UHGV virus genome: UHGV-0141061 | Length of the DNA stretch: 12,554 bases | Direction: 5' to 3' (one strand) | Source of the DNA: a virus | Shown: positions 1 through 12,554 of the stretch, piece by piece | Layout: each line of letters begins with the position of its first letter | Numbering within the stretch: position 1 is the stretch's first letter | Made by a program: the position numbers and the translations under genes | Notes under the pieces: model-generated | What the model was told of the DNA's origin: nothing | Databases searched by the model: none | Seen by the model: only the letters and a program-made list of their open reading frames with translations

Positions 1-48
1 TCTACACAGAGTAGATCGTCGGCAGCGTCAGATGTGTATAAGAGACAG
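1..48 (+). other. Illumina Nextera adapter (P5 tail CTACAC, i5 index AGAGTAGA, TCGTCGGCAGCGTC, Tn5 mosaic end AGATGTGTATAAGAGACAG); technical, not biological
   Basis: Read directly: 1-7 tctacac, 8-15 agagtaga, 16-29 tcgtcggcagcgtc, 30-48 agatgtgtataagagacag; its reverse complement is at 12508-12554. Confidence 0.9.
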
Positions 49-567
49 GCATATGGGTACGCATCATTCCTTTTTGGTATGGCTATATGTTTATGCGGAT
101 CATATAAGAATAAGGTTATTGGATATGCAATTCTTATTGCATCACTTTACTTGGCTGGATTTAAATATAATCATTATCTTTACGCATGGTTAAAAGAATT
201 TTCATTATCTATTAACAGCATTGAGAAAATAAATTTATACTTGCTTTTCAATCTATTATCTGGAATTGGAGTGGTATATTCCCTATGTAAGATTGGGGTT
301 ATGTCATGGTTTTCTGAATCAAAAATCATGGTCTTTTTAGGAAAGTTATCATTCTCGGCATACTTAATTCAAATGCCTGTATTTTATTGCTTATCAGGGC
401 CAGTTTATCATGAATCAAGGAAAATCATGAGCGACTCCAGCGCATGTTTATCAGCTGTTTTAATATCAGTGGTGATGCTTTATGCATGTTCTTACATCTT
501 TTATTTGCTCATCGACAGAAAAAGCATCGAGGTTTCCCATAGATTTGCCGCGATCTTTTCAAAGTAA
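49..567 (+). CDS. Acyltransferase family 3 (Oac/OafA-like O-antigen acetyltransferase), C-terminal fragment; 5' end cut by the contig/adapter boundary
   Basis: Frame is open from the adapter junction to TAA 565-567; very hydrophobic multi-pass sequence with an FLGKLSFSAYLIQMPVFY-type segment typical of the C-terminal part of family-3 acyltransferases; AT-rich; sits next to a tailspike as in Sf6-type phages. The track's start at 34 lies inside the adapter. Confidence 0.55.
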   Translation, partial: AYGYASFLFGMAICLCGSYKNKVIGYAILIASLYLAGFKYNHYLYAWLKEFSLSINSIEKINLYLLFNLLSGIGVVYSLCKIGVMSWFSESKIMVFLGKLSFSAYLIQMPVFYCLSGPVYHESRKIMSDSSACLSAVLISVVMLYACSYIFYLLIDRKSIEVSHRFAAIFSK

Positions 568-574
568 AATTAGA

Positions 575-596
575 AGCCATGCGTTAGCGCATGGCT
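575..596. terminator. Candidate bidirectional terminator hairpin between convergent genes
   Basis: Perfect 9-bp inverted repeat AGCCATGCG / CGCATGGCT with a 4-nt loop, between stop codons at 565-567 (+) and 603-605 (-); flanks only moderately T-rich. Confidence 0.4.
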
Positions 597-602
597 TGAC
601 CT

Positions 603-1667
603 TTAGTAAGAGATAGGTATTTCTCCTGTAGAGAAGTTGCCTGCTGCACCTTCCCTGCTGCATAAAGCGAACTTCTTATCAACCACATCCCTTGAGTCTG
701 TAGCAATAATTTCATGGCAAATATTATTTGCAGATCTGTGCACGAATGTATTTACAACAGGCTTACTGGACGATGTTCCTTTGGCCCTCGTTCCGTCTAT
801 AAGGCAATCAGACACCGACATAAGTCCTGAAACTAGGTTATTGCTTGAATCCCAATCTATCAACGACTTATCAAAATACACGCTTCCTAACATATAGGTT
901 GTCCCTCCGGAGTAACCAACAAACCTGCGCAGCACTCCACCTTCCAGCCTAATATAGCTGCGAGACATTCCAGACGTAAAGTTCATGAAAGTTATGTCCA
1001 TATTGCTCTCAAGACCATAAAGGCATGATGCATACTCATTCAGGTATCCAATATAAGCTAAAACCTTACAACCAATTGATTTCGCAGGTGTCAGTTTGAC
1101 TATTGATATTTCTCTGGAAGTTGAATCATGGTAAGAGATGGCCCACTCAAATCTTGCATTTTTACCATTAAAGGTGCTTCCGGAGAAATCTATAACGCCA
1201 GGCATAATGAAATCACGAATAATGCTATTTTGTGTCTTAAAATTATTTTTAAATGAAACAATGTTAAGTGTGACTGCGTCAGGCCAGTAGATATTTGTAG
1301 ATATAATTACATTTTTTGGCAGATTTAATGCTCTTGGCTGAACAGGGCTACCAGTGGAAACAACATTATCACACCTGCATGTGAAGAGATCTACAAGCCC
1401 AGTTTTGTCCGATGATATTCTTACCGAACCCCCTTTGACAATAAAATCCCCCTTATGCTCTCCATAGTCAGTGCGAATCCCAAAGGGACCAATATCTGAG
1501 TTTATAATCTGCGTTGATTCATCAAAAGCGCCAGTACCAAAAGCCGCGCCATTAATTATCCTGCAATTGTCTATCAAAACCTTAGACGATCCATAATGAA
1601 GATTGAAGCTATCAACAGTGCAATCTCTTACCACAGTGTCACGGCTATAATTACCATCAATAGAACG
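603..1667 (-). CDS. Tailspike, distal (receptor-binding, beta-helix-like) portion; same frame as 1668-2849 but separated from it by TGA at 1668-1670
   Basis: Track ORF 603-1634 starts at GTG; the frame is open upstream to the TGA (linking codons RSIDGNYSRDTV); Gly/Ser/Asn/Thr-rich beta-strand-like sequence; AT-rich. Confidence 0.55.
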   Translation of the reverse strand, partial: RSIDGNYSRDTVVRDCTVDSFNLHYGSSKVLIDNCRIINGAAFGTGAFDESTQIINSDIGPFGIRTDYGEHKGDFIVKGGSVRISSDKTGLVDLFTCRCDNVVSTGSPVQPRALNLPKNVIISTNIYWPDAVTLNIVSFKNNFKTQNSIIRDFIMPGVIDFSGSTFNGKNARFEWAISYHDSTSREISIVKLTPAKSIGCKVLAYIGYLNEYASCLYGLESNMDITFMNFTSGMSRSYIRLEGGVLRRFVGYSGGTTYMLGSVYFDKSLIDWDSSNNLVSGLMSVSDCLIDGTRAKGTSSSKPVVNTFVHRSANNICHEIIATDSRDVVDKKFALCSREGAAGNFSTGEIPISY

Positions 1668-2849
1668 TCACCCTTTCCCAACAACAGTGCTAAAAAAAGA
1701 ATGCTTCAGAGTAAACTCTAGAGTCAATGTGTAGCGAGATTCAGAATCAGGTTGTGTCATCCCCGATGAGCACAAATACCAATTAACACCGTATGTATTA
1801 CTACTACCAAAAATTGCAGAGTTGATGGGTATTACGCCTAAGGTATTATCATAATTAACCCTTACATCAACCATAGACCTTTTGATATCAACAGCCGTGC
1901 CAGTAAACGTCCCTGATAACTTAGGCAATACAATGACAGTCCTTCGCACAGGCAGCTTATATAAAGTACAGATAAGTGAAGAGTTGTATGTATTCTTAAA
2001 TGTATACGCTAAATCACTTCCTTTGGTTAGTAGGTTAACTTCACCTTTGTATTTTGGCGTGAAAGTGCTGCCAAGCAATCGGTACAAGTCAATTTCAGTA
2101 CCAGACATCTTAACTAAGGAATTATCCCATCCAGTGGTTGACTCTGTAAATGTTAGCGCGGAAGTTAGCTCGTTTAATGGATATGCTGATGGTGTAAAAT
2201 CTTTAATGTATGTAGATGCGTCTCTCTCATCAGCATAAACAATCTTACCGCCAGCCAGGTTGAACGTGCAATTGCTGAGATCAAAATCTCCGTATAACGT
2301 TGTCTCTTTGTCGATAGTGAAAGTCAGTGGCATAGTTGAGTAGATTTTCACTGGAGTTCCTTTAAACTCAGCAAAAACAGAATTCAACTGATCGCTATTT
2401 CTTTCACCATCAGCAGCAGCTATATCGTATACAGAAAGCCTGACCTCTAACCCCCCTATTATTTTGTAACCGTCTGGCGAACTAATTTCATCCATGAACC
2501 TTTGCTCAAACTGGTCAGGGTCATACTTCAGCACATTCGGAAAATAGAACTGCTGAGAACCGTACGCATCGTATACAGCCATAGAATGGCCTTGCACAGT
2601 TACGAATTTGGCAATCTGTCCGTTATATACAGGATACCCGCCAGCGTTAATGATGATTGGCTGTGCAACAGGAACGTGAGAACCGTCTTCGTTTTCCACA
2701 TAAACCTGAATCTGGTTTTCAGGATTTACCGGGTCAGTGCCAATTTTACCGATATAAATTTTGCCATTGGCTACGGCTTTAAAAGAACGAGCCATAGTGA
2801 AGAGTTGCGAAGGCATGCTTACCACAACATTTGCGGTGATATCTGACAT
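1668..2849 (-). CDS. P22-type tailspike, N-terminal part including the head-binding domain; ends at an in-frame TGA
   Basis: From ATG 2847-2849 (GGAG 7 nt upstream): [78 protein letters not shown], which closely parallels the P22 gp9 head-binding domain as I recall it. The track's start at 2897 is an upstream in-frame extension. Confidence 0.8.
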
Positions 2850-2937
2850 TTCATTGCTCCAGACGAATGATATGATGCAACCATGATGTGATTGCATACC
2901 GAAATGGTACTATTGAGTATTTATCCAGTAGGTTACG

Positions 2938-3231
2938 ATGCCATTCCACCCAACTGGTGAGGCATCAAGGATGTACAGCAAATACGACGAGGCGCAGTTT
3001 CACTTGAGACTTCCGCATGAACTTCACGCGAAAATTAAACAGCGTGCGAAGATGAATAACAGGTCGCTGAACTCAGAGATAATTGCAGCGATTGAAGAAT
3101 CATTGACTAAACAAAGCTCTGCATCAGTTTACATTGACGATGCAGAGCGTATGGCAGAACAACAATCCGATATGGTAAAGAAAATTGTCTTTGATACGCT
3201 CAAAGAGCTATATAAAAAAGACAGCAGCTAA
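2938..3231 (+). CDS. mnt: Mnt-like ribbon-helix-helix repressor
   Basis: FHLRLPHELHAKIKQRAKMNNRSLNSEIIAAIEESL...DAERMAEQQSDMVKKIVFDTLKELYKK parallels P22 Mnt (FNFRMPMEVREKLKFRAEANGRSMNSELLQIVQDAL...DAERLADEQSELVKKMVFDTLKDLYKK, recalled). An alternative start is ATG 2971. Confidence 0.8.
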   Translation: MPFHPTGEASRMYSKYDEAQFHLRLPHELHAKIKQRAKMNNRSLNSEIIAAIEESLTKQSSASVYIDDAERMAEQQSDMVKKIVFDTLKELYKKDSS

Positions 3232-3238
3232 CTATCAG

Positions 3239-3742
3239 TTACGGAGGATTCCCGATAGGGGGTAAGGGGGTATTTGTATTTATTGTCTTTTGTATATTGT
3301 CTTTTGTGTTTGACTGATTCGGTAAATTGCTTTTTACCGATTTGGTGAAGGTTTGTTTTACCGAATTGGTAAATGTTTTACCGAATCCGTTAACTTTCGT
3401 TTTCCACTCGGAAATGTTTGTATTCATACCAACTTGACGCCCCACCTGAATGAGAACTCCCATTCTGATAAGCTCGTTTTTGGCGGTAGAGCATTTGGTT
3501 GGTGCCATGCCAGTGAGTTCAGCGAACTGTTCGTTTCCGATCCAATCTATTTTTTTGTTGTAACCGTATGTCTTGCGCCACACAGCCATAACAATCAGTA
3601 ACTGATGTAGAGTAAGTCCAGAAAGCATGGCGGCTTCTAACAGTGTGTTTGCAGTCCGAGTGTAGCCATCTTCGAGTTCTGCCACGCGATGCTCCACGAC
3701 CTCCAGTTGAGGCCTGTAATCAGCTAACTTAACGACGCCCAT
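3239..3742 (-). CDS. Replication initiator O-like protein, N-terminal (iteron-binding) domain only; C-terminal domain absent
   Basis: DGYTRTANTLLEA..LTLHQLLIVMAVWRKTYGYNKKIDWIGNEQFAELTGMAPTKCSTAKNELIRMGVLIQ..NISEW parallels the lambda O N-terminal domain (recalled). AGGAG lies upstream of ATG 3740-3742. The ORF ends at TAA 3239-3241 just after the iteron and A+T-rich segment, where lambda O continues for about 130 more codons. Confidence 0.7.
   Translation of the reverse strand: MGVVKLADYRPQLEVVEHRVAELEDGYTRTANTLLEAAMLSGLTLHQLLIVMAVWRKTYGYNKKIDWIGNEQFAELTGMAPTKCSTAKNELIRMGVLIQVGRQVGMNTNISEWKTKVNGFGKTFTNSVKQTFTKSVKSNLPNQSNTKDNIQKTINTNTPLPPIGNPP
3318..3393. repeat. ori-like iteron array inside the O-like gene
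   Basis: Three direct 18-bp repeats TTTTACCGA(T/A)TTGGT(G/A)AA at 3332-3349 and 3356-3373 and TTTTACCGAATCCGTTAA at 3376-3393, plus an inverted partial copy ATTCGGTAAA at 3318-3327; an A+T-rich segment follows at about 3270-3317, arranged as in lambda ori. Confidence 0.5.
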
Positions 3743-3890
3743 GTTTCACTCCTGCTTTGGCTAGTCTGTAAACACCAACAAGGCGCTCTGCGAACGCCCT
3801 GTTATTTGCTGCGGCTACCACTAATCCCTCAGGTGAATCAGGGTGTCGAATCTCTTCTTTTTCCTGGTATTTCTTACGACGTTTTGTCAT
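3729..3890 (-). CDS. Small basic hypothetical protein (53 aa) between cII and O, overlapping the O-like start
   Basis: ATG 3888-3890 with AGGAG 7 nt upstream; MTKRRKKYQEKEEIRHPDSPEGLVVAAANNRAFAERLVGVYRLAKAGVKHGRR; stop TAA 3729-3731 overlaps the O-like start codon in another frame. Below the track's size cut-off; no homolog recognised. Confidence 0.3.
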   Translation of the reverse strand: MTKRRKKYQEKEEIRHPDSPEGLVVAAANNRAFAERLVGVYRLAKAGVKHGRR

Positions 3891-3900
3891 AATTACTCCT

Positions 3901-3976
3901 GTAGATTGATCCAGTAATTCCCTCAGAATTGCATATCAATTTGCTTAAAATCCTCGGTGGCGGCCGGGGATTTTTT
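3901..3976 (+). ncRNA. oop: OOP-like antisense RNA, antisense to the 3' end of cII, with intrinsic terminator
   Basis: gtagattgatccagtaatt..ctcagaa..tcctcggtggcggccgggga+TTTTTT parallels lambda OOP RNA (GUUGAUAGAUCCAGUAAUGACCUCAGAA...CGCUCGGUUGCCGCCGGGCGUUUUUU, recalled); hairpin 3952-3969 followed by a T-tract 3971-3976; a candidate -10 CATAAT is at 3888-3893. Confidence 0.5.
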
Positions 3977-4219
3977 CTTTGTGATTCCATCCAATGCATA
4001 CTTAAAAGCCCTGCTAATCGGACTGATGTCTGATGCCATTCCGAAAGCACACAAGACCGAAGCAATAAACCTCCAGTCCGTTCTGCTTATCTTCGATTCA
4101 TGACAGCCAATCATCTTTGCCAGACCGCGCTGGGTAAGCGTTGACAGGTTGATGAGTAAATCAGTTTCAGCGCGATCAATTTCTCGCTGTGTTGGCTTGC
4201 TATAACTTGCTTGTGTCAT
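3923..4219 (-). CDS. cII: CII-like transcriptional activator
   Basis: C-terminal ..KISRTDW..ITKKKSPAATEDFKQIDMQF parallels lambda CII ..QISRWKRDW..LTNKKRPAATERSEQIQMEF; position downstream of cro. Confidence 0.85.
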   Translation of the reverse strand: MTQASYSKPTQREIDRAETDLLINLSTLTQRGLAKMIGCHESKISRTDWRFIASVLCAFGMASDISPISRAFKYALDGITKKKSPAATEDFKQIDMQF

Positions 4220-4303
4220 TTGTTAATTTTCCAATAGTGAATAGTTAGTTGAAAGGTATGCGTGGAAACGCATATGGCCTTAGTTGGTCAGATATCTTGG
4301 GGC

Positions 4304-4349
4304 TCGCTTTGTCAGCGACGTAGGACGAATGTCCATTGTGAAAAGAGCG
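4304..4349 (-). promoter_or_regulatory. nutR-like site: boxA CGCTCTTTT and P22-type boxB hairpin TCGCTGACAAAGCGA
   Basis: On the - strand just downstream of the cro stop: boxA-like at 4341-4349, boxB stem-loop at 4304-4318 (5-bp stem, GACAA loop). The spacer is about 22 nt, longer than in lambda. Confidence 0.45.
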
Positions 4350-4356
4350 GTGTTAC

Positions 4357-4557
4357 TTATGCAGTTGTTTTTTTGTTACTTGGGAAGGGCTTTATTTCTT
4401 CCGCATAAACGCTTCCATCAGCGTTTATAGTTAAAAAAATCTTTCGGCCTGCATGAATGGCCTTGTTAATCGCGCTTTGATATACGCCGAGATCTTTAGC
4501 CGTCTTGGTTTGCCCAAAGCGTATTGCATAATCTTTCAGGGTTATGCGTTGTTCCAT
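4357..4557 (-). CDS. cro: Cro repressor, near-identical to lambda Cro
   Basis: 66 aa [66 protein letters not shown]; differs from recalled lambda Cro at about 2 residues; AGGAGG precedes the ATG. Confidence 0.95.
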
Positions 4558-4581
4558 ACAACCTCCTTAGTACAGGCAACC

Positions 4582-5371
<790 letters not shown>

Positions 5372-5402
5372 TTGTTTTATTTTTCACGTAATAGGATGAT
5401 TT

Positions 5403-5744
5403 ATGACACAATTTCAACTTGCATTAATCGCTAGAGAAGTTGATGGAGAAGTCATCCATCTTCGCACCAAAGACGGATACATCAATGCCACCGCGATGTG
5501 CAAGTCTGCGGGGAAGCTACTTGCTGACTATACACGACTAAAAACAACACAAGATTTTTTTGATGAATTATCACGCGATATGGGGATTCCCATATCGGAG
5601 TTAATTCAATCATTTAAAGGCGGAAGAGCAGAGAATCAAGGGACTTGGGTTCATCCAGACATCGCAATTAATTTAGCTCAGTGGCTATCTCCAAAATTTG
5701 CAGTGCAAGTATCGAGATGGGTGCGTGAGTGGATGTCAGGTTAA
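5403..5744 (+). CDS. KilA-N domain protein (113 aa) immediately downstream of cI, in the position of lambda rexA
   Basis: AGGA 6 nt upstream of ATG 5403; GYINATAMCKSAGK...GTWVHPDIAINLAQWLSPKFAVQVSRWV is the characteristic KilA-N pattern; same strand as cI. Confidence 0.7.
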   Translation: MTQFQLALIAREVDGEVIHLRTKDGYINATAMCKSAGKLLADYTRLKTTQDFFDELSRDMGIPISELIQSFKGGRAENQGTWVHPDIAINLAQWLSPKFAVQVSRWVREWMSG

Positions 5745-5783
5745 AGAGCGCCTGCCGAACTCCCTATCCACCTTAAGCGGTAT

Positions 5784-6162
5784 ATGACAAACCGAGGCAG
5801 AGTTCCTCATACGCACTTTTCTATGCTTAATGAACTGACGTTTAACTTGGTTGCGCCACTTGAACAGGCCGGATATACGCTGCCAGAAAAAATGGTCCCT
5901 GATATTTCAGAGGGTAGGGTTTTCTCGCAATGGCTCCGTGACAACCGGGGGGTTGAGCCGAAGACATTCCCAACATATAACCATGAGTACCCAGATGGCC
6001 GGACATTCCCGGTACGTCTATACCCAAACGAATATTGCAGATTTCAAACAATACTTCAACGAAGTGTGGCTGCCTCAGTACGCTCCTAAATATTTTGCTG
6101 AACGAGACCAAAGGGCATTGACGTTGATTGAGAAAATCATGCTACCTGACCTTGATTCCTAA
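5784..6162 (+). pseudogene. Hypothetical protein with a broken reading frame (+1 shift between two overlapping ORFs 5784-6089 and 5851-6162)
   Basis: Frame 1 ...FPTYNHEYPDGRTFPVRLYPNEY and frame 2 ...NIADFKQYFNEVWLPQYAPKYFAERDQRALTLIEKIMLPDLDS both look protein-like and switch near 6020-6040; frame 1 is also in frame with the upstream KilA-N ORF across TAA 5742-5744; weak ribosome-binding site. Confidence 0.4.
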
Positions 6163-6170
6163 ATGTTATT

Positions 6171-6196
6171 CCCGGCCACAGAGCCGGGTTTTCTTT
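6171..6196 (+). terminator. Intrinsic terminator ending the cI operon
   Basis: CCCGGC-cacaga-GCCGGG stem-loop followed by TTTTCTTT, 8 nt after the stop at 6160-6162. Confidence 0.7.
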
Positions 6197-6348
6197 GCCT
6201 CACGATCCCCCTCACCCAAGAACACATAACCAATTGTATCTATTTGAAAATAAATAGATACAACTCACTAAACATAGCAGTTCAGATCTCTCACCTACCA
6301 AACAATGCACCACTGCAAAAAATAAATTCATATAAAAAACATACAGAT

Positions 6349-6410
6349 AACCATCTGCGGTGATGAATTATCTCTAGCGGTGTTGACATAAATACCACTG
6401 GCGGTGATAC
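6349..6410 (+). promoter_or_regulatory. Lambda-type left operator OL3 (6349-6365), OL2 (6369-6385), OL1 (6393-6409) with PL (-35 TTGACA 6382-6387, -10 GATACT 6405-6410)
   Basis: aaccatctgcggtgatg, tatctctagcggtgttg, taccactggcggtgata and the PL hexamers read directly; near-identical to lambda OL/PL. Confidence 0.9.
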
Positions 6411-6479
6411 TAAACACATCAGCAGGACGCACTACTCACCAGGGCGGTGAATATACAACGATTCAAATATGAATCTACG

Positions 6480-6494
6480 GCGCTGACAAAGCGC
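6480..6494 (+). promoter_or_regulatory. nutL-like boxB hairpin GCGCTGACAAAGCGC (P22 type)
   Basis: Perfect 5-bp stem with GACAA loop about 65 nt downstream of PL; matches the P22 boxB-left sequence as I recall it; no clear boxA upstream. Confidence 0.5.
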
Positions 6495-6557
6495 AATAAC
6501 CAAAGTGAACTTTGGGGTGAATGCAGAAGCTAACCTTCTCGGCGGAGGCGCTTTGCA

Positions 6558-6758
6558 ATGATTACGCTAAGCGAAATGCTTCGCTCATATAAACCAGATG
6601 AACACACTAAGGACGCTATCGACTGGCTGGAAGATGATGACTGTAACTATCAGGAAAAAGCCGCTGAATGGTTCTGGGATGCAATAACCGAAAGAGTTAA
6701 GGCTGAATATGCCTTCGCAATATTCAAACGCAGACACATTTTTGGAGAAGCTGCATGA
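6558..6758 (+). CDS. Small acidic hypothetical protein (66 aa), first gene of the PL operon
   Basis: GGAGG 9 nt upstream of ATG 6558; stop overlaps the next start (ATGA at 6755-6758), implying translational coupling; no homolog recognised. Confidence 0.5.
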   Translation: MITLSEMLRSYKPDEHTKDAIDWLEDDDCNYQEKAAEWFWDAITERVKAEYAFAIFKRRHIFGEAA

Positions 6759-7090
6759 GCAATATCGTTGAATTCGTTAAACAGCAGGAGCAGTTATTCT
6801 GCGGAGCATTGACTGAACAGACGGTGACATGGGCTAAGGAAAGCCAGTTTGCAATTCAGTATTTCCAGAAAAACGATTACCTGGCTAAAACAGCACTGGC
6901 AAATCCAACCAGCGCACAGAACGCCATCATCAATGTTGCGGCGATCGGCATCACCTTAAACCCGGCCAGCAAACTGGCTTATCTGGTTCCTCGCGACGGC
7001 ATGGTGTGCCTTGATATCAGTTACATGGGATTACTTCATCTTGCGCAATCGACAGGATCAATTAAGTGGGGGCAATGCAAACTGGTGTAA
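6755..7090 (+). CDS. RecT/Red-beta-family recombinase, N-terminal fragment (truncated)
   Basis: ..NAIINVAAIGITLNPASKLAYLVPRDGMVCLDISYMGLLHLAQSTGSI.. follows the conserved RecT core pattern (E. coli RecT ..IVQCSQLGLEPGSALGHAYLLPFG..IIGYRGMIDLARRSGQI.., recalled) but stops at 111 aa where full-length proteins have about 270. Confidence 0.5.
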   Translation: MSNIVEFVKQQEQLFCGALTEQTVTWAKESQFAIQYFQKNDYLAKTALANPTSAQNAIINVAAIGITLNPASKLAYLVPRDGMVCLDISYMGLLHLAQSTGSIKWGQCKLV

Positions 7091-7223
7091 AGGGTGTGAG
7101 CACTTTTCAATAGTAGCACCGCAGCAAGATGGGTGATGAAAACAAGTATTTATAACTTAAAGGCATTAAAAAATCGCTTATAGATCAAAAGAAATCTACG
7201 TCAAATATTACTATATTTCAATG

Positions 7224-7232
7224 TGTTATAAT
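7224..7232 (+). promoter_or_regulatory. Candidate extended -10 promoter (TGtTATAAT) for the downstream small ORF
   Basis: TG at 7224-7225 and TATAAT at 7227-7232 inside a very AT-rich segment (7091-7250); no good -35. Confidence 0.3.
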
Positions 7233-7261
7233 TACCCGTCCATAAAATGGGGAGACACAAA

Positions 7262-7504
7262 ATGTTCAAACGCTGCATCACCAAGTGTGGAAGCACACCT
7301 GACATCCACGCTTTTATTAATGAAGATGGTAAGCTTGTTGTTGAGAGGAGTGGTCATTTTATTAGCAAACAACTTATCATTACCTCTCCAGCGGAGATGG
7401 CCGGGGAATGGATAGTTTCTGAACCAGAGGAGTGGCACACCCCTCTTCCTTATGGCCCTCAGGGACTGATTTATAACCGTTATGTTCAGAAGGAGGCGGG
7501 TTGA
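7262..7504 (+). CDS. Hypothetical protein (80 aa)
   Basis: GGAGAC 5 nt upstream of ATG 7262; the track ORF begins at the in-frame ATG 7247, which has no ribosome-binding site; no homolog recognised. Confidence 0.4.
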   Translation: MFKRCITKCGSTPDIHAFINEDGKLVVERSGHFISKQLIITSPAEMAGEWIVSEPEEWHTPLPYGPQGLIYNRYVQKEAG

Positions 7505-7781
7505 CAATGCCAGGCATAACATCGCCGAGCAATCGAAAGAAAAACAGAACAAGGTAAACGTTGACCTTGCAGCATCAGGCGTGGCGTACAGAGAGCGCCT
7601 TAACATACCTGTTATCTGAGCAGGTAGCACGAGAGCAACCTGAGCACTCACGCGAGTATTTCATGGAGCGCGTCAGATACTATCGCGAGCAGTCGTTAAA
7701 CCTGCCCAAGGGAAGCAACCCATGGTATATCGAGATGGATGAACAGAACGCCAAGAAGTAAGCGCAATTTGAACGAATGCG

Positions 7782-7838
7782 AACCCGCCGAGTGCGGGTT
7801 TTCTTTTATCTGAACTCGCTACGGCGAGTTTTGTTTTA
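7782..7838 (+). terminator. Two tandem intrinsic terminators
   Basis: AACCCGC-cgagt-GCGGGTT followed by TTTTCTTTT (7782-7807), and ACTCGC-tacg-GCGAGT followed by TTTTGTTTT (7814-7838). Confidence 0.6.
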
Positions 7839-7850
7839 TGGAGACAAGAA

Positions 7851-8195
7851 ATGTCAGATTTGGCTATGAAGGTTTTGAAATGGCAATCAACTGGCGATGT
7901 CGGCATCAGTAGCGCAACTCTTGCCTCAATCGCATGTGGCCTGAAAAAGAATATCTATGGTCATCACTTCGGCGCTCCCCATGACGCAGCAGACTTTCGG
8001 CGATGCGTTGCACTTGTTGAGCAGATTCCAGAAATCAGAGATTCATTCGACAAGGTTGCAAAGCGCGTTCCGGCATTCAAAGGAATCCTCAACGAATGGG
8101 ATTCCCTCGTTGCTCTGTTGAAGTCTGAAATGAAGATACACGGAAACAAAGCACCAGAGACTTACAGAAGAATCAGCGAGCTACGCAAGGACTAA
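7851..8195 (+). CDS. Hypothetical protein (114 aa), moron-like gene bracketed by terminators
   Basis: GGAGAC upstream of ATG 7851; terminator pairs immediately before (7782-7838) and after (8199-8259); no homolog recognised. Confidence 0.5.
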   Translation: MSDLAMKVLKWQSTGDVGISSATLASIACGLKKNIYGHHFGAPHDAADFRRCVALVEQIPEIRDSFDKVAKRVPAFKGILNEWDSLVALLKSEMKIHGNKAPETYRRISELRKD

Positions 8196-8198
8196 CCC

Positions 8199-8259
8199 GC
8201 CTCACACTCGATGAGGCCTGTTTATATCTGATAGAGCCGCTATATGGCGGTTTATTTTT
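8199..8259 (+). terminator. Terminator-like hairpins downstream of the 7851-8195 gene
   Basis: GCCTCA-cactcga-TGAGGC (8199-8217) followed by a T-rich stretch, and CCGC-tatatg-GCGG (8237-8250) followed by TTTATTTTT. Confidence 0.45.
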
Positions 8260-8274
8260 GCCTGGAGAATTAAG

Positions 8275-8466
8275 ATGACCGATACCAGCCTGATTCCTGA
8301 GAAAGAAGTGATGAACAAGCTCGGTGTTTCATCACGTCAGACAATCTGGAACTATACCAAACGGCACGGATTTCCGAAGCCAGTCAGAACCCACCCCAAA
8401 TCATACCTTCGTGAAGCTGTTGAAGGGTGGATTCTTAACGGTGGCGTTAATCAGAAATGCTCCTGA
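8275..8466 (+). CDS. AlpA/Xis-family DNA-binding protein (excisionase or regulator)
   Basis: GGAGA upstream of ATG 8275; ..MNKLGVSSRQTIWNYTKRHGFPKPVRT..YLREAVEGWI is the AlpA-type winged-helix pattern; lies beside the integrase; its 3' end overlaps the integrase 3' end by 20 bp. Confidence 0.8.
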   Translation: MTDTSLIPEKEVMNKLGVSSRQTIWNYTKRHGFPKPVRTHPKSYLREAVEGWILNGGVNQKCS

Positions 8467-8920
8467 TGTGCCAGAACAATTTATCAGCGTGAAGCTCATA
8501 CGCTTTGCGCTGAGCCTCTATCCAATCGAGTTTATTGTATACGGACATTATCCCGCCAAGTTCATGACCGAGCATTCGCTCAGTAACATGAGGCTCGACA
8601 TTCATCTCGGACAGCCGTGTAACAAGCGTTCTTCTGAAATCATGTGTTCGCCAGTAACCTAGGTCCATCCCTCCCCTTATTCTATTTACGAATCGGTTGG
8701 CTGCAGCGATGCTGATCGGTTTGTTTATGTCTTCTCCAGGGAAAAGAACATCATTGTACGTTGTCATGGCCTTTTCGAGGAAAGGCTTAATTTGTTCGAA
8801 GATTGGACGGCGGATAACATTACCCATCTTGCTATGCTCTTTCGGTACGGTCCATACGTTGTCCAGCAGGTCAAATTCTGTCTTTATTGCCAGCCTAAGT
8901 TCTGAGAGCCTCGCCCCCAC
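8447..8920 (-). pseudogene. Tyrosine integrase (P4 type), C-terminal catalytic fragment
   Basis: ..GARLSELRLAIKTEFDLLDNVWTVP..HDFRRT..LGHELGGIMSVYNKLDW.. shows the catalytic R/H-x-x-R/Y region; its frame differs from the central fragment at a C5 run (8914-8918). Confidence 0.8.
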
Positions 8921-9136
8921 AGCATAAGCATCTGATGAAGTAGCTTATTTGACGTAGACGCACGGCTTCTTTCAATAGCAAGCCAAATCTTAGCCAGTTC
9001 GTGATACGACAGTACCCGATCCCCTACCTCAGCGCGGGAGCCGAAGTCCCTTGGTTGGATGCTCATAATTGCGCAACTATCTATCAACTGACGCCGCATG
9101 CACCAACTAATTGCTGATCTTAGTTGACTTAGCACC
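8884..9136 (-). pseudogene. Tyrosine integrase, central fragment between the IS insertion and the frameshift
   Basis: In frame with the N-terminal fragment once the IS and one target duplication are removed (1341 bp, a multiple of 3); ends at a stop 8884-8886 created by the frameshift. Confidence 0.6.
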
Positions 9137-9200
9137 TGATGTAGCCCCCTGAAACACCAGACAGTAGCTGTATCTCCAGATAAGAGATAGGCTTGAATAT

Positions 9201-9596
9201 ATGTCTAACACTAACACCAATATTGAGATGACCGGGATCCTGTTAGGGCAAGAAGTCCGTAAACGTAAAACTCCTCAGGAGAAGATCGCCATTATCCAGC
9301 AGACGATGGAGCCGGGTATGAATGTCTCCCATGTCGCCCGCCTGCATGGTATCCAGCCCAGCCTGCTGTTTAAGTGGAAGAAGCAATATCAGGAAGGCAG
9401 CCTCACCGCCGTTGCGGCTGGAGAGGAAGTCGTTCCTGCTTCTGAGCTTACTGCTGCTCTGAAGCAGGTCCGGGAGCTTCAGCGCCTTCTGGGCAAGAAG
9501 ACGATAGAAGTTGAGATCCTAAAAGAAGCCGTGGAGTACGGTCAGTCGCGAAAATGGATAGCGCACGCGCCCTTGTTGCCAAAGGACGGGGAATAG
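9201..9596 (+). CDS. IS3-family transposase OrfA (helix-turn-helix and leucine zipper)
   Basis: ..[78 protein letters not shown].. resembles IS2 OrfA. Confidence 0.85.
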
Positions 9597-10435
9597 CCAT
9601 GGTCAGCCGGACCATGGGCGTGTCGCGTGCGCAACTGTCACTGCGGATTAACCGTTCTGCCGACTGGCAGGACAGGCGCTGTAACCGGCGTAATGAAGAA
9701 GCAGACGCAGAAATACTGTCGGCTATCCTCAACATTATCAGCGATATGCCGAGTTATGGTTATCGACGCGTGTGGGGCATCCTGCGCAAGCAACGTCGCA
9801 CAGAGGGACAGCCACCTGTGAATGCCAAACGGCTTTACAGGATAATGAGCGAGCATAACCTGTTGTTGTTGCATCACAAACCAGAGCGACCGAAGCGTGA
9901 ACATAAGGGCAAGATAGCGGTGGCAGAAAGCGATATGCGCTGGTGTTCAGATGGCTTCGAGTTCGGCTGCGACAACGGCGAAAAACTGCGGGTAACGTTC
10001 GCGCTGGACTGCTGCGACCGTGAGGCCATAGACTGGGCAGCAAGCACGGGAGGCTATGACAGTTCGACCGTGCAGGATGTGATGCTGAGGTCGGTGGAAA
10101 AGCGCTTCGGCGACAGGCTGCCGGAAACACCAGTGCAGTGGCTGACGGACAACGGTTCAGCATATACCGCGCATGAAACGCGGAGGTTCGCCAAAGAGCT
10201 GAATCTGGAGCCATGTACAACAGCGGTGAGCAGCCCGCAGAGCAATGGCATGGCCGAACGGTTCGTGAAGACGATGAAGGAAGACTATATCGCGTTCATG
10301 CCGAAACCGGATGTGAGAACAGCCCTGCGGAACCTTGCAGCGGCGTTCACGCATTACAATGAAAATCACCCGCATAGTGCGCTGGGATATCACTCTCCGA
10401 GAGAATACCGGCGGCAGCGGGCATCGTTAACTTAA
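9554..10435 (+). CDS. IS3-family transposase OrfB (DDE catalytic domain), in the -1 frame relative to OrfA
   Basis: ..[92 protein letters not shown].. is a DDE integrase-core pattern resembling IS2 OrfB; overlaps orfA by 43 nt. Confidence 0.85.
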
Positions 10436-10472
10436 GATACAAAAGCTGTCCGGAAATGGCGGGTCAAGATCA

Positions 10473-10965
10473 GCACCTGCCTTGCTCGGCGTGGATTATC
10501 TTTTTCTTCTTCGGTAAGCAGGTCAACCCATTGCTTAACCGTGATAGAAGATGCCGGACGATTAGGGAAGGCGTCATGCATGCGCTTCATAACCGTTGAT
10601 CGGTAAAGTGCCTGGGTCTTTTCTCTGAGAGTTGTAGAGACGTAGTTGTCGAACCAGTAGTCGAGACACTGGGCGACCGTCATGGAGTTCTCCACCTTCT
10701 CTTCAAAATAGGTGCGTGGATCCGTTCCTGAGAAATAGAGCTTCCGCAAGTCAGCAGTGATCTGTCTGGCATCCTTCAAAGACAGGGATGGGTATCGACC
10801 AAGCCCAAGTCGTTTAGGCTTGCCATACCAGCGATAGCGGTACTGGAACTGGATGACCCCCTTCGGTGAAATTCGTACGCTGAGGCCATCGGCATCAGCC
10901 ACTTCTTGTGGGCCCGAATATGGTTTACCATAAATAGTACGCAGTTTTGTGTCGCTTATAGCCAT
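10473..10965 (-). pseudogene. Tyrosine integrase (P4 type), N-terminal fragment upstream of the IS insertion
   Basis: MAISDTKLRTIYGKPYSGPQEVADADGLSVRISPKGVIQFQYRYRWYGKPKRLGLGRYPSLSLKDAR is the characteristic N-terminal arm-binding domain of P4-type integrases; the track ORF continues 13 codons into the IS before stopping. Confidence 0.8.
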
Positions 10966-11146
10966 AAATAATATTTGGTACGCTCAAAAATAATGGTTTG
11001 GTACACATCTGGTACACAATATCACATGGACAACAGCGCACAGTAAACAACTATATTTGACGTTCGTAGACATACTCAGGTGAAAAAATGGTTGTTTTTC
11101 GAGTTATAACAGACAGTTAATTAACTACAGTGGACAATGCTAGACA
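10966..11146. promoter_or_regulatory. Putative prophage-host junction (attL-like) and integrase promoter region with short direct repeats
   Basis: TGGTAC(ACA) at 10976-10981, 10999-11007 and 11010-11018; GACAATG at 11133-11139 and 11143-11149; palindrome TTAATTAA at 11118-11125; lies between the integrase start and sbcB. Confidence 0.3.
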
Positions 11147-12507
11147 ATGACAGACACAGATAAACAACCTACCTTCCTCTTTCACGATTACGAAACCTTT
11201 GGCACGCACCCCGCGTTAGATCGCCCTGCACAGTTCGCAGCCATTCGCACCGATAGCGAATTCAATGTCATCGGCGAACCCGAAGTCTTTTACTGCAAGC
11301 CCGCTGATGACTATTTACCCCAGCCAGGAGCCGTATTAATTACCGGTATTACCCCGCAGGAAGCACGGGCGAAAGGAGAAAACGAAGCCGCGTTTGCCGC
11401 CCGTATTCACTCGCTTTTTACCGTACCGAAGACCTGTATTCTGGGCTACAACAATGTGCGTTTCGACGACGAAGTCACACGCAACGTTTTTTATCGTAAT
11501 TTCTACGATCCTTACGCCTGGAGCTGGCAGCATGATAACTCGCGCTGGGATTTGCTGGATGTTATGCGTGCCTGTTATGCCCTGCGCCCGGAAGGAATAA
11601 ACTGGCCTGAAAATGATGACGGTCTACCGAGCTTTCGCCTTGAGCATTTAACCAAAGCGAATGGAATTGAACATAGCAACGCCCACGATGCGATGGCTGA
11701 TGTGTACGCCACTATTGCGATGGCGAAACTGGTAAAAACGCGTCAGCCACGTCTGTTTGATTATCTCTTTACCCATCGTAATAAACACAAACTGATGGCG
11801 TTGATTGATGTTCCGCAGATGAAACCCCTGGTTCACGTTTCCGGAATGTTTGGGGCATGGCGCGGCAATACCAGCTGGGTGGCACCGCTGGCGTGGCATC
11901 CAGAAAATCGCAATGCCGTAATTATGGTGGATTTGGCAGGAGACATTTCGCCATTACTGGAACTGGATAGCGACACATTGCGCGAGCGTTTATATACTGC
12001 AAAAGCCGATCTTGGCGATAACGCCGCCGTTCCGGTTAAGCTGGTGCATATCAATAAATGTCCGGTGCTGGCCCAGGCGAATACGCTACGCCCGGAAGAT
12101 GCCGACCGACTGGGAATTAATCGTCAGCATTGCCTCGATAACCTGAAAATTCTGCGTGAAAATCCGCAAGTGCGTGAAAAAGTGGTGGCGATATTCGCGG
12201 AAGCCGAACCGTTTACGCCTACAGATAACGTGGATGCACAGCTTTATAACGGCTTTTTCAGTGACGCAGATCGTGCAGCAATGAAAATTGTGCTGGAAAC
12301 CGAGCCACGTAATTTACCGGCACTGGATATCACTTTTGTTGATAAACGGATTGAAAAGCTGTTGTTCAATTATCGGGCACGCAACTTCCCGGGGACGCTG
12401 GATTATGCCGAGCAGCAACGCTGGCTGGAGCACCGCCGCCAGGTATTCACGCCAGAGTTTTTGCAGGGTTATGCTGATGAATTGCAGATGCTGGTACAAC
12501 AATATGC
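11147..12507 (+). CDS. sbcB: Exodeoxyribonuclease I (SbcB), 3' end truncated by the contig/adapter boundary
   Basis: By-eye translation with no stops: MTDTDKQPTFLFHDYETFGTHPALDRPAQFAAIRTDSEFNVIGEPEVFYCKPADDYLPQPGAVLITGITPQEA...EFLQGYADELQMLVQQYA matches E. coli SbcB except in the first 12 or so residues. Absent from the ORF track, presumably because it has no stop before the window end. Confidence 0.9.
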
Positions 12508-12554
12508 CTGTCTCTTATACACATCTGACGCTGCCGACGATCTACTCTGTGTAG
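12508..12554 (-). other. Illumina Nextera adapter, reverse complement of 2-48; technical
   Basis: ctgtctcttatacacatct gacgctgccgacga tctactct gtgtag read directly. Confidence 0.9.

What the first reader, a model, noticed from the sequence alone, without database searches (positions are those of the whole stretch)
6417..6560. P22-type nut sites are present on both arms but there is no N antiterminator gene
boxB hairpins GCGCTGACAAAGCGC (6480-6494, downstream of PL) and TCGCTGACAAAGCGA (4304-4318, downstream of cro) match the P22 boxB type as I recall it. The first gene after nutL is a 66-aa acidic protein that is not arginine-rich or N-like, and no N-like ORF occurs anywhere in the window. The element keeps cis-acting antitermination sites but would need N supplied in trans, so its early operons would respond to a superinfecting P22-type phage.
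Basis: partly seen in the sequence, partly recalled or inferred. Interest (0 to 1): 0.5.

Follow-up and report, generated by a model that had tools for sequence, protein, structure and literature searches.

The report
N-deleted relic of a lambdoid prophage
The two hairpins are genuine, intact antitermination (nut) sites of a known phage type, and the N gene is missing because a deletion removed it from a prophage that has also lost most of its other genes, which is an ordinary case of prophage decay.

Summary
GCGCTGACAAAGCGC (6480-6494, +) and TCGCTGACAAAGCGA (4304-4318, -) are real boxB hairpins. The first is identical to the annotated P22 nutL boxB. Both sit in nutL and nutR blocks that match phages HK97, mEp234 and H-19B/BP-4795 nearly base for base, and each of those phages has an N gene directly downstream. 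No N-like ORF exists in the window.

The cause is a deletion whose joint I mapped to 6567-6570, with a 2-bp TA overlap. On the left, the H-19B-type N leader stops 56 nt before the experimentally used N start codon. On the right, the sequence resumes at codon 41 of the 103-aa gene that precedes recT. The "66-aa acidic protein" is therefore an accidental in-frame fusion of a leader ATG to the 3' part of that gene.

The element is a cryptic P22-like prophage next to sbcB. It also carries a 4-kb recT-DUF550 deletion, a truncated O gene, no late genes, an IS in int, a broken BstA-like gene and, in this copy, a tailspike nonsense codon. The same joint occurs in E. coli EC2641 and in assemblies from many samples.

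The idea that the nut sites are kept to respond to N supplied in trans has no support. cI is intact, so PL and PR should be repressed, and almost nothing useful lies downstream. Interest is low.

The parts
6350..6418 (+). OL operators and the PL promoter (-35 TTGACA 6383-6388, -10 GATACT 6406-6411, inferred start A6418), of lambda/HK97 type
   Evidence: Identical to the annotated pL/oL of mEp234 and to HK97, apart from natural polymorphisms such as G->A at 6376 in OL2, which E. coli 1190 also has.
6460..6494 (+). nutL: spacer hairpin GATTCAAATATGAATC (6460-6475) followed by boxB GCGCTGACAAAGCGC (6480-6494). There is no good boxA; the 'putative boxA' annotated in mEp234 corresponds to CGCACTACT at 6428-6436.
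   Evidence: The boxB is annotated in mEp234 and is identical to the P22 nutL boxB. Fold. The region is invariant in HK97, mEp234, BP-4795, EC2641 and E. coli 1190.
6495..6569 (+). Remnant of the H-19B/BP-4795/E. coli 1190-type N leader, ending at the deletion joint
   Evidence: Window 6414-6567 is 98.7% identical to H-19B and BP-4795 and 100% identical to E. coli 1190 through 6569. The H-19B N start lies 56 nt beyond the break.
6567..6570 (.). Deletion joint 1, with a 2-bp TA overlap at 6568-6569. It removed the rest of the leader, all of N, the genes that follow it and the first 40 codons of the gene preceding recT.
   Evidence: Three-way comparison. The right side is 100% identical to L016 from 6568 onward. 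The same joint is present in EC2641 and in contigs from many samples.
6558..6758 (+). Chimeric 66-aa ORF: the leader ATG (GGAGG at 6544-6548, 9 nt upstream) plus 3 codons, fused in frame to codons 41-103 of a 103-aa phrog_3486 protein of unknown function
   Evidence: PHROG match covers residues 4-66 against profile positions 40-102 of 102, while the full-length mEpX1 gp35 matches positions 1-102. Alignment. No Pfam hit.
6755..7090 (+). 5' third of recT (111 codons), cut off by deletion joint 2 at 7088-7089 (TA overlap). About 4.0 kb is missing relative to E. coli 2016C04-116.
7781..7831 (+). Two tandem intrinsic-terminator-like hairpins within the remaining PL operon, upstream of orf114 and xis. 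Further terminator-like sites lie at 8199-8253.
   Evidence: This is a consensus scan only and is not evidence of function.
4304..4349 (-). nutR: boxA CGCTCTTTT (4341-4349), spacer hairpin GGACATTCGTCC (4323-4334) and boxB TCGCTGACAAAGCGA (4304-4318)
   Evidence: 100% identical to HK97 and E. coli 1190 nutR and near-identical to BP-4795. The two-hairpin layout matches the one described for H-19B nutR (PMC3526286). Fold.
4357..4557 (-). cro (66 aa, Pfam Cro), the first gene of the PR operon
4658..5371 (+). cI repressor with lambda immunity specificity, intact
   Evidence: 235 of 237 residues identical to HK97 cI.
3239..4219 (-). What remains downstream of nutR: cII (3923-4219), a 53-aa ORF (3729-3890) and a truncated O-like replication gene (3239-3742, 167 aa, matching only the N-terminal part of O profiles). 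This is joined directly to an Mnt-like gene (2938-3231, +) and the tailspike gene.

Best explanation
The window is a cryptic P22-like/lambdoid prophage beside sbcB in E. coli. Its ancestor had a lambda-specificity immunity region (cI, cro, OL/OR) joined to an HK97/H-19B-type N-nut antitermination module.

An illegitimate recombination event (2-bp TA microhomology, joint at 6567-6570) deleted DNA starting 56 nt upstream of the N start codon. It removed N and the genes that follow it and ended at codon 41 of the gene preceding recT. Judged from relatives, roughly 1.6-1.9 kb is missing, and at least 0.44 kb.

nutL and nutR lay outside the deletion and are unchanged relics. The '66-aa protein' is an accidental fusion ORF.

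A prophage without N cannot run its early operons past their terminators. Losing N therefore removes the lethality of induction, a known route by which prophages become stranded in the chromosome. The element later suffered further deletions, an IS insertion and point lesions.

Shown here: the homologies, the joints, the absence of N, the intact cI, and the recurrence of the joint in other assemblies. Inferred: the order of the events, the size of the deletion, and the view that the nut sites now have no function of their own.
For: - **nut sites match phages that have N.** nutL and PL are near-identical to mEp234 and HK97, where PL, nutL boxB and N are annotated. Window 6414-6567 matches H-19B/BP-4795, and the window matches E. 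coli 1190 through 6569. In all of these an intact 127-aa N (MTRRTQFKGNSRSRRRER...) follows.
- **The true N start lies beyond the break.** PMC3526286 numbers H-19B N residues R3, S11, R15 and R18 from that methionine.
- **The right side of the joint is a different gene.** It is 100% identical to the gp35-like/recT module of E. coli 2016C04-116 from 6568 onward. The ORF covers only positions 40-102 of phrog_3486.
- **No N homologue is present**.
- **There are other lesions in the window.** These are the recT-DUF550 deletion, the truncated O gene, missing late genes, an IS2-like insertion in int with a 5-bp duplication, a BstA-like pseudogene and a tailspike nonsense codon.
- **The joint is not an assembly artefact.** The same chimeric ORF is indexed in 74 blocks of the assembly collection. 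All 8 loci shown carry the same decayed gene order, up to where their contigs end.
- **The N deletion appears to be early.** EC2641 carries the same joint but different flanking deletions.
- **N loss from prophages is already described** for E. coli O157 EDL933 (PMC6379469).
Against: - No exact ancestor with both flanks in one prophage was found, so the deleted content and its size are estimates.
- The nut sites show no decay at all. That would also be expected if they were under selection, but the copies are too similar (1-17 differences over 7-12 kb) to tell the two apart.
- EC2641 holds the same joint at a different chromosomal site (near dsdA/csc, with torI). This needs an extra recombination or rearrangement step that I did not resolve.
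- No expression data are available.
Confidence: 0.9

Rival explanations
1. One reading: the element retains nut sites as working cis elements, so that N supplied in trans by a superinfecting or co-resident P22/HK97/H-19B-type phage switches on its early operons, as a helper does for a satellite.
For: Both nut sites are intact and identical to functional ones. P22 gp24 and H-19B-type N belong to the same Pfam family, and the P22 nutL boxB is identical to the window's. About 13% of complete E. coli genomes (694 of 5426) carry this nutL/N-leader type, so a co-resident source of N is plausible. Terminator-like hairpins at 7781-7831 and 8199-8253 would give N something to overcome.
Against: cI is intact. 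PL and PR should therefore be silent unless cI is inactivated, and N acts only on nut RNA that is being transcribed. Downstream there is little to express: O is truncated, recT is truncated, int is split by an IS, and there are no late or lysis genes. The intactness of the nut sites is explained by the young age of the remnant. PR also carries a -10 change, GATAAT to GATAGT, in this sublineage.
Confidence: 0.06
2. The deletion made the PL operon independent of N. By removing the tL1-type terminator region together with N, it lets derepressed PL express the remaining left-arm genes without antitermination, so the arrangement would be a selected rewiring and not plain decay.
For: In HK97 and mEpX1 an annotated terminator lies between N and the recombination genes. 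That interval is inside the deleted stretch.
Against: The first genes now downstream are a truncated fusion ORF and a truncated recT. Terminator-like hairpins remain before orf114 and xis. The further deletions and the IS argue for continuing decay.
Confidence: 0.04
3. The joint is an assembly artefact, in which a chimeric metagenome contig joined two different prophages.
For: The contig comes from a metagenome assembly and carries adaptor sequence at both ends.
Against: The same joint is present in a complete E. coli chromosome (EC2641) and in independent ENA, NCBI and Logan assemblies of different samples, with the same flanking sequence on both sides.
Confidence: 0.01

Closest known systems
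HK97 / mEp234 / HK106 and H-19B / BP-4795 early-left control regions (PL-nutL-N)
   Same: PL and OL, the transcript start, the spacer hairpin and the boxB all match. The N leader up to 6567 matches only H-19B/BP-4795, because HK97 and mEp234 diverge from the window after 6519. nutR (boxA, spacer hairpin, boxB) is 100% identical to HK97. cI is 99% identical to HK97 cI.
   Different: Those phages encode a 127-aa N starting 56 nt beyond the point where the window's homology ends. The window has none and continues into the middle of an unrelated gene.
Phage P22 nutL / gene 24
   Same: The nutL boxB is identical (GCGCTGACAAAGCGC). P22 gp24 and HK97/H-19B N fall in the same Pfam family (PF25694), share the C-terminal LP.VALYAAG.RKSKQ.TAR motif and have a similar arginine-rich motif (GNAKTRRHERRRK against GNSRSRRRERLKAK).
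   Different: P22 has a good boxA (CGCTCTTTA) 11 nt before the nutL boxB, a different nutR boxB (CCGCCGACAACGCGG), a different leader and a different immunity region (c2). The window's flanks are not P22-like at the DNA level.
N-less defective lambdoid prophages of E. coli, such as those described for O157:H7 EDL933
   Same: Loss of the N antiterminator together with other lesions, while immunity and accessory genes are kept.
   Different: This is a specific, apparently undescribed remnant at sbcB with an exactly mapped joint and a fusion ORF. It retains both nut sites unchanged.

Membership tests
P22/HK97/H-19B-type N-nut antitermination module | boxB RNA hairpin with a 5-bp stem and a GACAA pentaloop | tested here: met
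   Two exact copies of the core, against 0.03 expected. Folds. The nutL copy is identical to the P22 nutL boxB and to the annotated mEp234 boxB.
P22/HK97/H-19B-type N-nut antitermination module | nut sites placed early in the PL transcript and just after cro in the PR transcript | tested here: met
   The nutL boxB lies 62 nt after the PL start. The nutR boxB lies 39 nt after the cro stop codon.
P22/HK97/H-19B-type N-nut antitermination module | boxA (CGCTCTT[T]A-like) upstream of boxB | tested here: inconclusive
   nutR has CGCTCTTTT at 4341-4349. nutL has only the weak CGCACTACT that is annotated as putative boxA in mEp234. Intact relatives show the same state, so this is not decay.
P22/HK97/H-19B-type N-nut antitermination module | N gene (Pfam PF25694, N-terminal arginine-rich motif) encoded directly downstream of nutL | tested here: not met
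   Homology to N-bearing relatives stops 56 nt before the N start. No tblastn hit better than E = 0.12. No PF25694 hit among the tested window ORFs, whereas the positive controls scored 57.8 and 152 bits.
P22/HK97/H-19B-type N-nut antitermination module | N-dependent read-through of downstream terminators | not testable with these tools
   This needs reporter or transcript assays with and without N.
Defective (cryptic) lambdoid prophage | Integrated next to host genes with an integrase at the end | tested here: met
   int lies next to sbcB, as in many E. coli prophages at this site.
Defective (cryptic) lambdoid prophage | Essential phage functions missing or disrupted | tested here: met
   N is deleted. 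O is truncated. No P, nin, Q, lysis or head genes lie between O' and mnt/tailspike. recT is truncated. int is split by an IS2-like element. A BstA-like gene is broken. The tailspike carries a nonsense codon at 1668.
HK022-type N-independent antitermination (put RNA, Nun) | put-type two-stem-loop RNA in place of nut, and a Nun-like protein | tested here: not met
   The leader is homologous to N-using phages throughout. There is no Nun-like hit and no Rfam match in 6418-6567 at E <= 1. I did not check whether Rfam holds a put model.

The most novel reading that the evidence does not exclude
The remnant could be a domesticated element that a helper phage can still address. When cI is inactivated (by SOS or a helper's antirepressor) and a helper supplies an H-19B/HK97/P22-type N, N-modified polymerase starting at PR could read through O' into the same-strand tailspike gene. 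That gene is intact (748 aa) in most sister copies. The helper's virions could then acquire a second tailspike, or the nut RNAs could titrate the helper's N. Either outcome would give the relic nut sites a present-day role.
Probability: 0.03. Interest if true: 0.6.

Novelty: new member of a known kind. Interest (0 to 1): 0.12.

Why it matters
It matters little beyond annotation. The case shows base by base how a lambdoid prophage was disabled. A short-microhomology deletion removed N and left both nut sites untouched, and because a second, differently decayed remnant shares the joint, this was probably an early step in the decay.

Three practical points follow:
- The 66-aa ORF should not be annotated as a gene of its own.
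- The 149-aa 'N' annotation of BP-4795 starts at an upstream leader ATG, not at the true N start.
- Intact nut sites without N in a young remnant are not evidence of function.

Tried and rejected
- **Exact-match scan for the joint in one genome per species** (genome contigs) found nothing. This says little, because the remnant is lineage-specific within E. coli.
- **My first boxB pattern, YCGCTGACAAAGCGR, was too strict** and missed the nutL copy. The 13-nt core replaced it.
- **No single comparator carries both flanks.** E. coli 1190 and 20AR0300 have the left side with N but different recombination modules. 2016C04-116 and JKHS016 have the right side but P22-type immunity. The size of the deletion is therefore only bracketed.
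- **OL2 (6376) and OR1 G->A changes as lambda-vir-like operator mutations.** Rejected: HK97 and E. coli 1190 carry them too, so they are natural polymorphisms.
- **ATG 6558 as the true N start,** as BP-4795 annotates it. Rejected: the frame relation to N is not conserved. It is out of frame in E. coli 1190 and the sequence is absent from HK97. The H-19B literature numbering also fits the downstream Met.
- **Rfam scan at E <= 1** found nothing relevant.
- **A six-frame scan for arginine-rich stretches** found none in a phage ORF.

Full report
**Observation.** The window reads GCGCTGACAAAGCGC at 6480-6494 (+) and TCGCTGACAAAGCGA at 4304-4318 (-). The shared 13-nt core occurs exactly twice. About 0.03 matches are expected by chance, and none of 200 shuffles gave two. 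Each copy folds as a 5-bp stem with a GACAA pentaloop. In the annotated P22 genome, the nutL feature ends with exactly GCGCTGACAAAGCGC, preceded by boxA CGCTCTTTA. P22's own nutR boxB is a different sequence.

**Setting.** The window is a metagenome contig (ENA ERZ652521 NODE_127) from E. coli, with sbcB at its right end. From left to right it carries:
- an acyltransferase gene, cut off by the contig end, and a P22-type tailspike gene (- strand);
- an Mnt-like gene;
- a truncated O-like replication gene, a 53-aa ORF and cII;
- nutR and cro;
- OR and cI;
- a broken KilA-N/BstA-like gene and a terminator;
- OL and PL;
- nutL;
- the 66-aa ORF and a 111-codon recT fragment;
- three small ORFs and an AlpA-like xis;
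- an integrase split by an IS2-like element;
- sbcB.

PL (TTGACA 6383-6388, GATACT 6406-6411, start 6418) and the operators are those of lambda, HK97 and mEp234. cI is identical to HK97 cI at 235 of 237 residues.

**What the nut sites are.**
- From the terminator after the BstA-like gene to 6519, the window aligns with HK97, mEp234 and HK106. In mEp234 the authors annotated pL, oL1-3, nutL boxA and boxB, and a 127-aa N.
- From 6414 to 6567 it is 98.7% identical to H-19B, BP-4795 and many Stx phages. It is 100% identical through 6569 to a prophage of E. coli 1190 that has cI-rexA-rexB-PL-nutL-N.
- nutR consists of boxA CGCTCTTTT at 4341-4349, a spacer hairpin at 4323-4334 and boxB at 4304-4318. 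It is 100% identical to HK97 and E. coli 1190 and near-identical to BP-4795.
- The two-hairpin layout matches the description of H-19B nutR in PMC3526286.
- HK97/H-19B N and P22 gp24 both hit Pfam PF25694 (N_peptide). They share the C-terminal motif and a similar arginine-rich motif.
- The module is therefore the known HK97/H-19B member of the P22-type N-nut family, attached to a lambda-specificity immunity region.

**Why N is missing.** The left homology ends at 6567 (H-19B, BP-4795) or at 6569 (E. coli 1190). From 6568 the window is 100% identical to the gp35-like/recT module of E. coli 2016C04-116 and 98% identical to mEpX1, EC.P3 and others. The two homologies overlap by the dinucleotide TA at 6568-6569, which is the mark of an illegitimate, microhomology-level deletion.

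In H-19B, the N gene as annotated by its discoverers begins 56 nt past the break. That start (MTRRTQFKGNSRSRRRER...) fits the residue numbering used in experiments on H-19B N (R3, S11, 12-RSRRRER-18; PMC3526286). All of N, including its Shine-Dalgarno sequence, is gone.

On the right, the joint falls at the second base of codon 41 of a 103-aa protein (phrog_3486, function unknown) that precedes recT in intact phages. In relatives the interval from just before N to that codon measures 1.6-1.9 kb and holds N plus genes such as ral, sieB, cIII and kil, as well as a terminator. The exact ancestor was not found. The size is therefore an estimate, with a floor of about 0.44 kb.

**The 66-aa ORF.** Its ATG at 6558 is an ATG within the N leader, with GGAGG 9 nt upstream.
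- BP-4795's annotation uses this ATG as the N start, which gives a 149-aa product.
- In E. coli 1190 the same ATG is out of frame with N. It opens a 22-codon leader ORF whose TGA overlaps the N ATG.
- HK97 lacks this sequence altogether.
- The ATG is therefore not the N start.

In the window it happens to be in frame with the truncated downstream gene. The product is Met-Ile-Thr, a joint codon, and then residues 42-103 of the phrog_3486 protein. It has no Pfam match and nothing resembling an antiterminator.

**The element is decaying.**
- A second deletion at 7088-7089, again with a TA overlap, removes about 4.0 kb from mid-recT to a DUF550 gene.
- O is cut to 167 codons and abuts mnt. There are no P, nin, Q, lysis or head genes.
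- An IS2-like element with a 5-bp GCACC duplication splits int.
- The BstA-like gene is broken.
- The tailspike gene has a nonsense change at 1668 that is absent from 6 of 7 sister contigs.
- The PR -10 reads GATAGT instead of GATAAT in this sublineage.

**Distribution.** The exact chimeric protein is indexed in 74 blocks of the assembly collection. The 8 loci shown (of 24 contigs read) come from ENA, NCBI and Logan assemblies of different samples. All have the same decayed gene order, up to where their contigs end, and are 99.8-99.99% identical to the window. No record among 50,697 phage genomes spans the joint.

Among 5,426 complete E. coli genomes only EC2641 spans it. That strain has the joint inside a 2.96-kb block that is 99.7% identical. 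Its flanking deletions differ, however, and the block lies at another chromosomal site, next to torI and the csc/dsdA genes. The simplest reading is that the N deletion came first and the other lesions accumulated later and independently. How the block reached two sites is unresolved.

**Mechanistic reading.** With cI intact, PL and PR should be repressed, and no nut RNA is made. On SOS induction the promoters would fire. Without N, polymerase should stop at the Rho-dependent tR1 region on the right and at the terminator-like hairpins at 7781-7831 and 8199-8253 on the left (a pattern scan only).

If N of the same specificity were supplied together with derepression, read-through is conceivable. 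About 13% of complete E. coli genomes carry this nutL/N-leader type, and the P22 nutL boxB is identical. The genes reached would still be truncated or disrupted.

The unchanged nut sites are explained by the remnant's youth, because the sister copies differ at only 1-17 positions. Loss of N from resident prophages has already been described (PMC6379469).

**Verdict.** It over-reaches in treating the relic sites as a retained trans-responsive system. This is a new instance of a well-known kind of object and is of low interest.

Noticed in passing
window 1-48 and 12509-12554: Both contig ends are sequencing adaptor, not genome: an index-like stretch plus the Nextera read-1 sequence TCGTCGGCAGCGTCAGATGTGTATAAGAGACAG, present as an inverted repeat. 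Sister contigs match only 49-12508. ORFs that run into these ends are artefacts.
   Followed up: yes
window 5403-6162 (+): In the position where lambda has rexAB, between cI and PL, there is a KilA-N/BstA-like abortive-infection gene (phrog_6287; Pfam KilA-N plus a weak BstA_C hit). It is broken by a stop codon at 5742-5744 and a frameshift, so it is a pseudogene in all copies seen.
   Followed up: partly
window 1668 (tailspike gene, 603-2897, - strand): A single T (C in 6 of 7 sister contigs) splits the 748-aa P22-type tailspike into 343-aa and 393-aa ORFs in this contig and in L008. In the other copies the tailspike is intact and lies beside an acyltransferase gene.
   Followed up: partly
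window 7088-7089: This is a second deletion joint with the same 2-bp TA overlap. It fuses codon 111 of recT to the 3' part of a DUF550 gene, and about 4.0 kb is missing relative to E. coli 2016C04-116 (L016 4802-8798).
   Followed up: yes
window about 9137-10467, inside int (8447-9135 and 10432-10965, - strand): An IS3-family, IS2-like element of about 1.33 kb (orfA 9201-9596, orfB up to 10435) is inserted in the integrase gene with a 5-bp target duplication, GCACC.
   Followed up: partly
L006 (E. coli EC2641, NZ_JALDNN010000001.1) 4267-7223, compared with window 3666-6622: The same immunity block with the same N-deletion joint (99.7% identity) sits in a differently decayed remnant at another chromosomal locus, next to torI and csc/dsdA. 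It has different deletions on both sides. How one N-less block came to lie at two sites is not explained.
   Followed up: partly
L018 (E. coli 1190) 6659-6727; L005 (BP-4795) 3645-3711: Intact H-19B-type N leaders contain an upstream ATG preceded by GGAGG. In E. coli 1190 it opens a 22-codon ORF whose TGA overlaps the N start (ATGA). In BP-4795 a 1-nt length difference puts it in frame with N, and the record annotates a 149-aa N. PGAP left N mostly unannotated in strain 1190.
   Followed up: partly
window 4583 (PR -10, - strand): The PR -10 hexamer reads GATAGT here and in several sister contigs. It reads GATAAT in lambda, HK97, E. coli 1190, EC2641 and sister contigs L011 and L012. This is probably a promoter-down change in this sublineage.
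   Followed up: partly
window 7561-7761 (+): A DNA polymerase III theta-like (HolE-like) ORF lies in the early-left remnant (Pfam PF06440, matching only the C-terminal half). The homologous gene is flagged as a pseudogene with an internal stop in related complete genomes (L016, L017).
   Followed up: no
window 3947-3974 (+): A strong terminator-like hairpin with a T run lies antisense to the 3' end of cII. This is the position expected for the oop RNA terminator of lambdoid phages.
   Followed up: no
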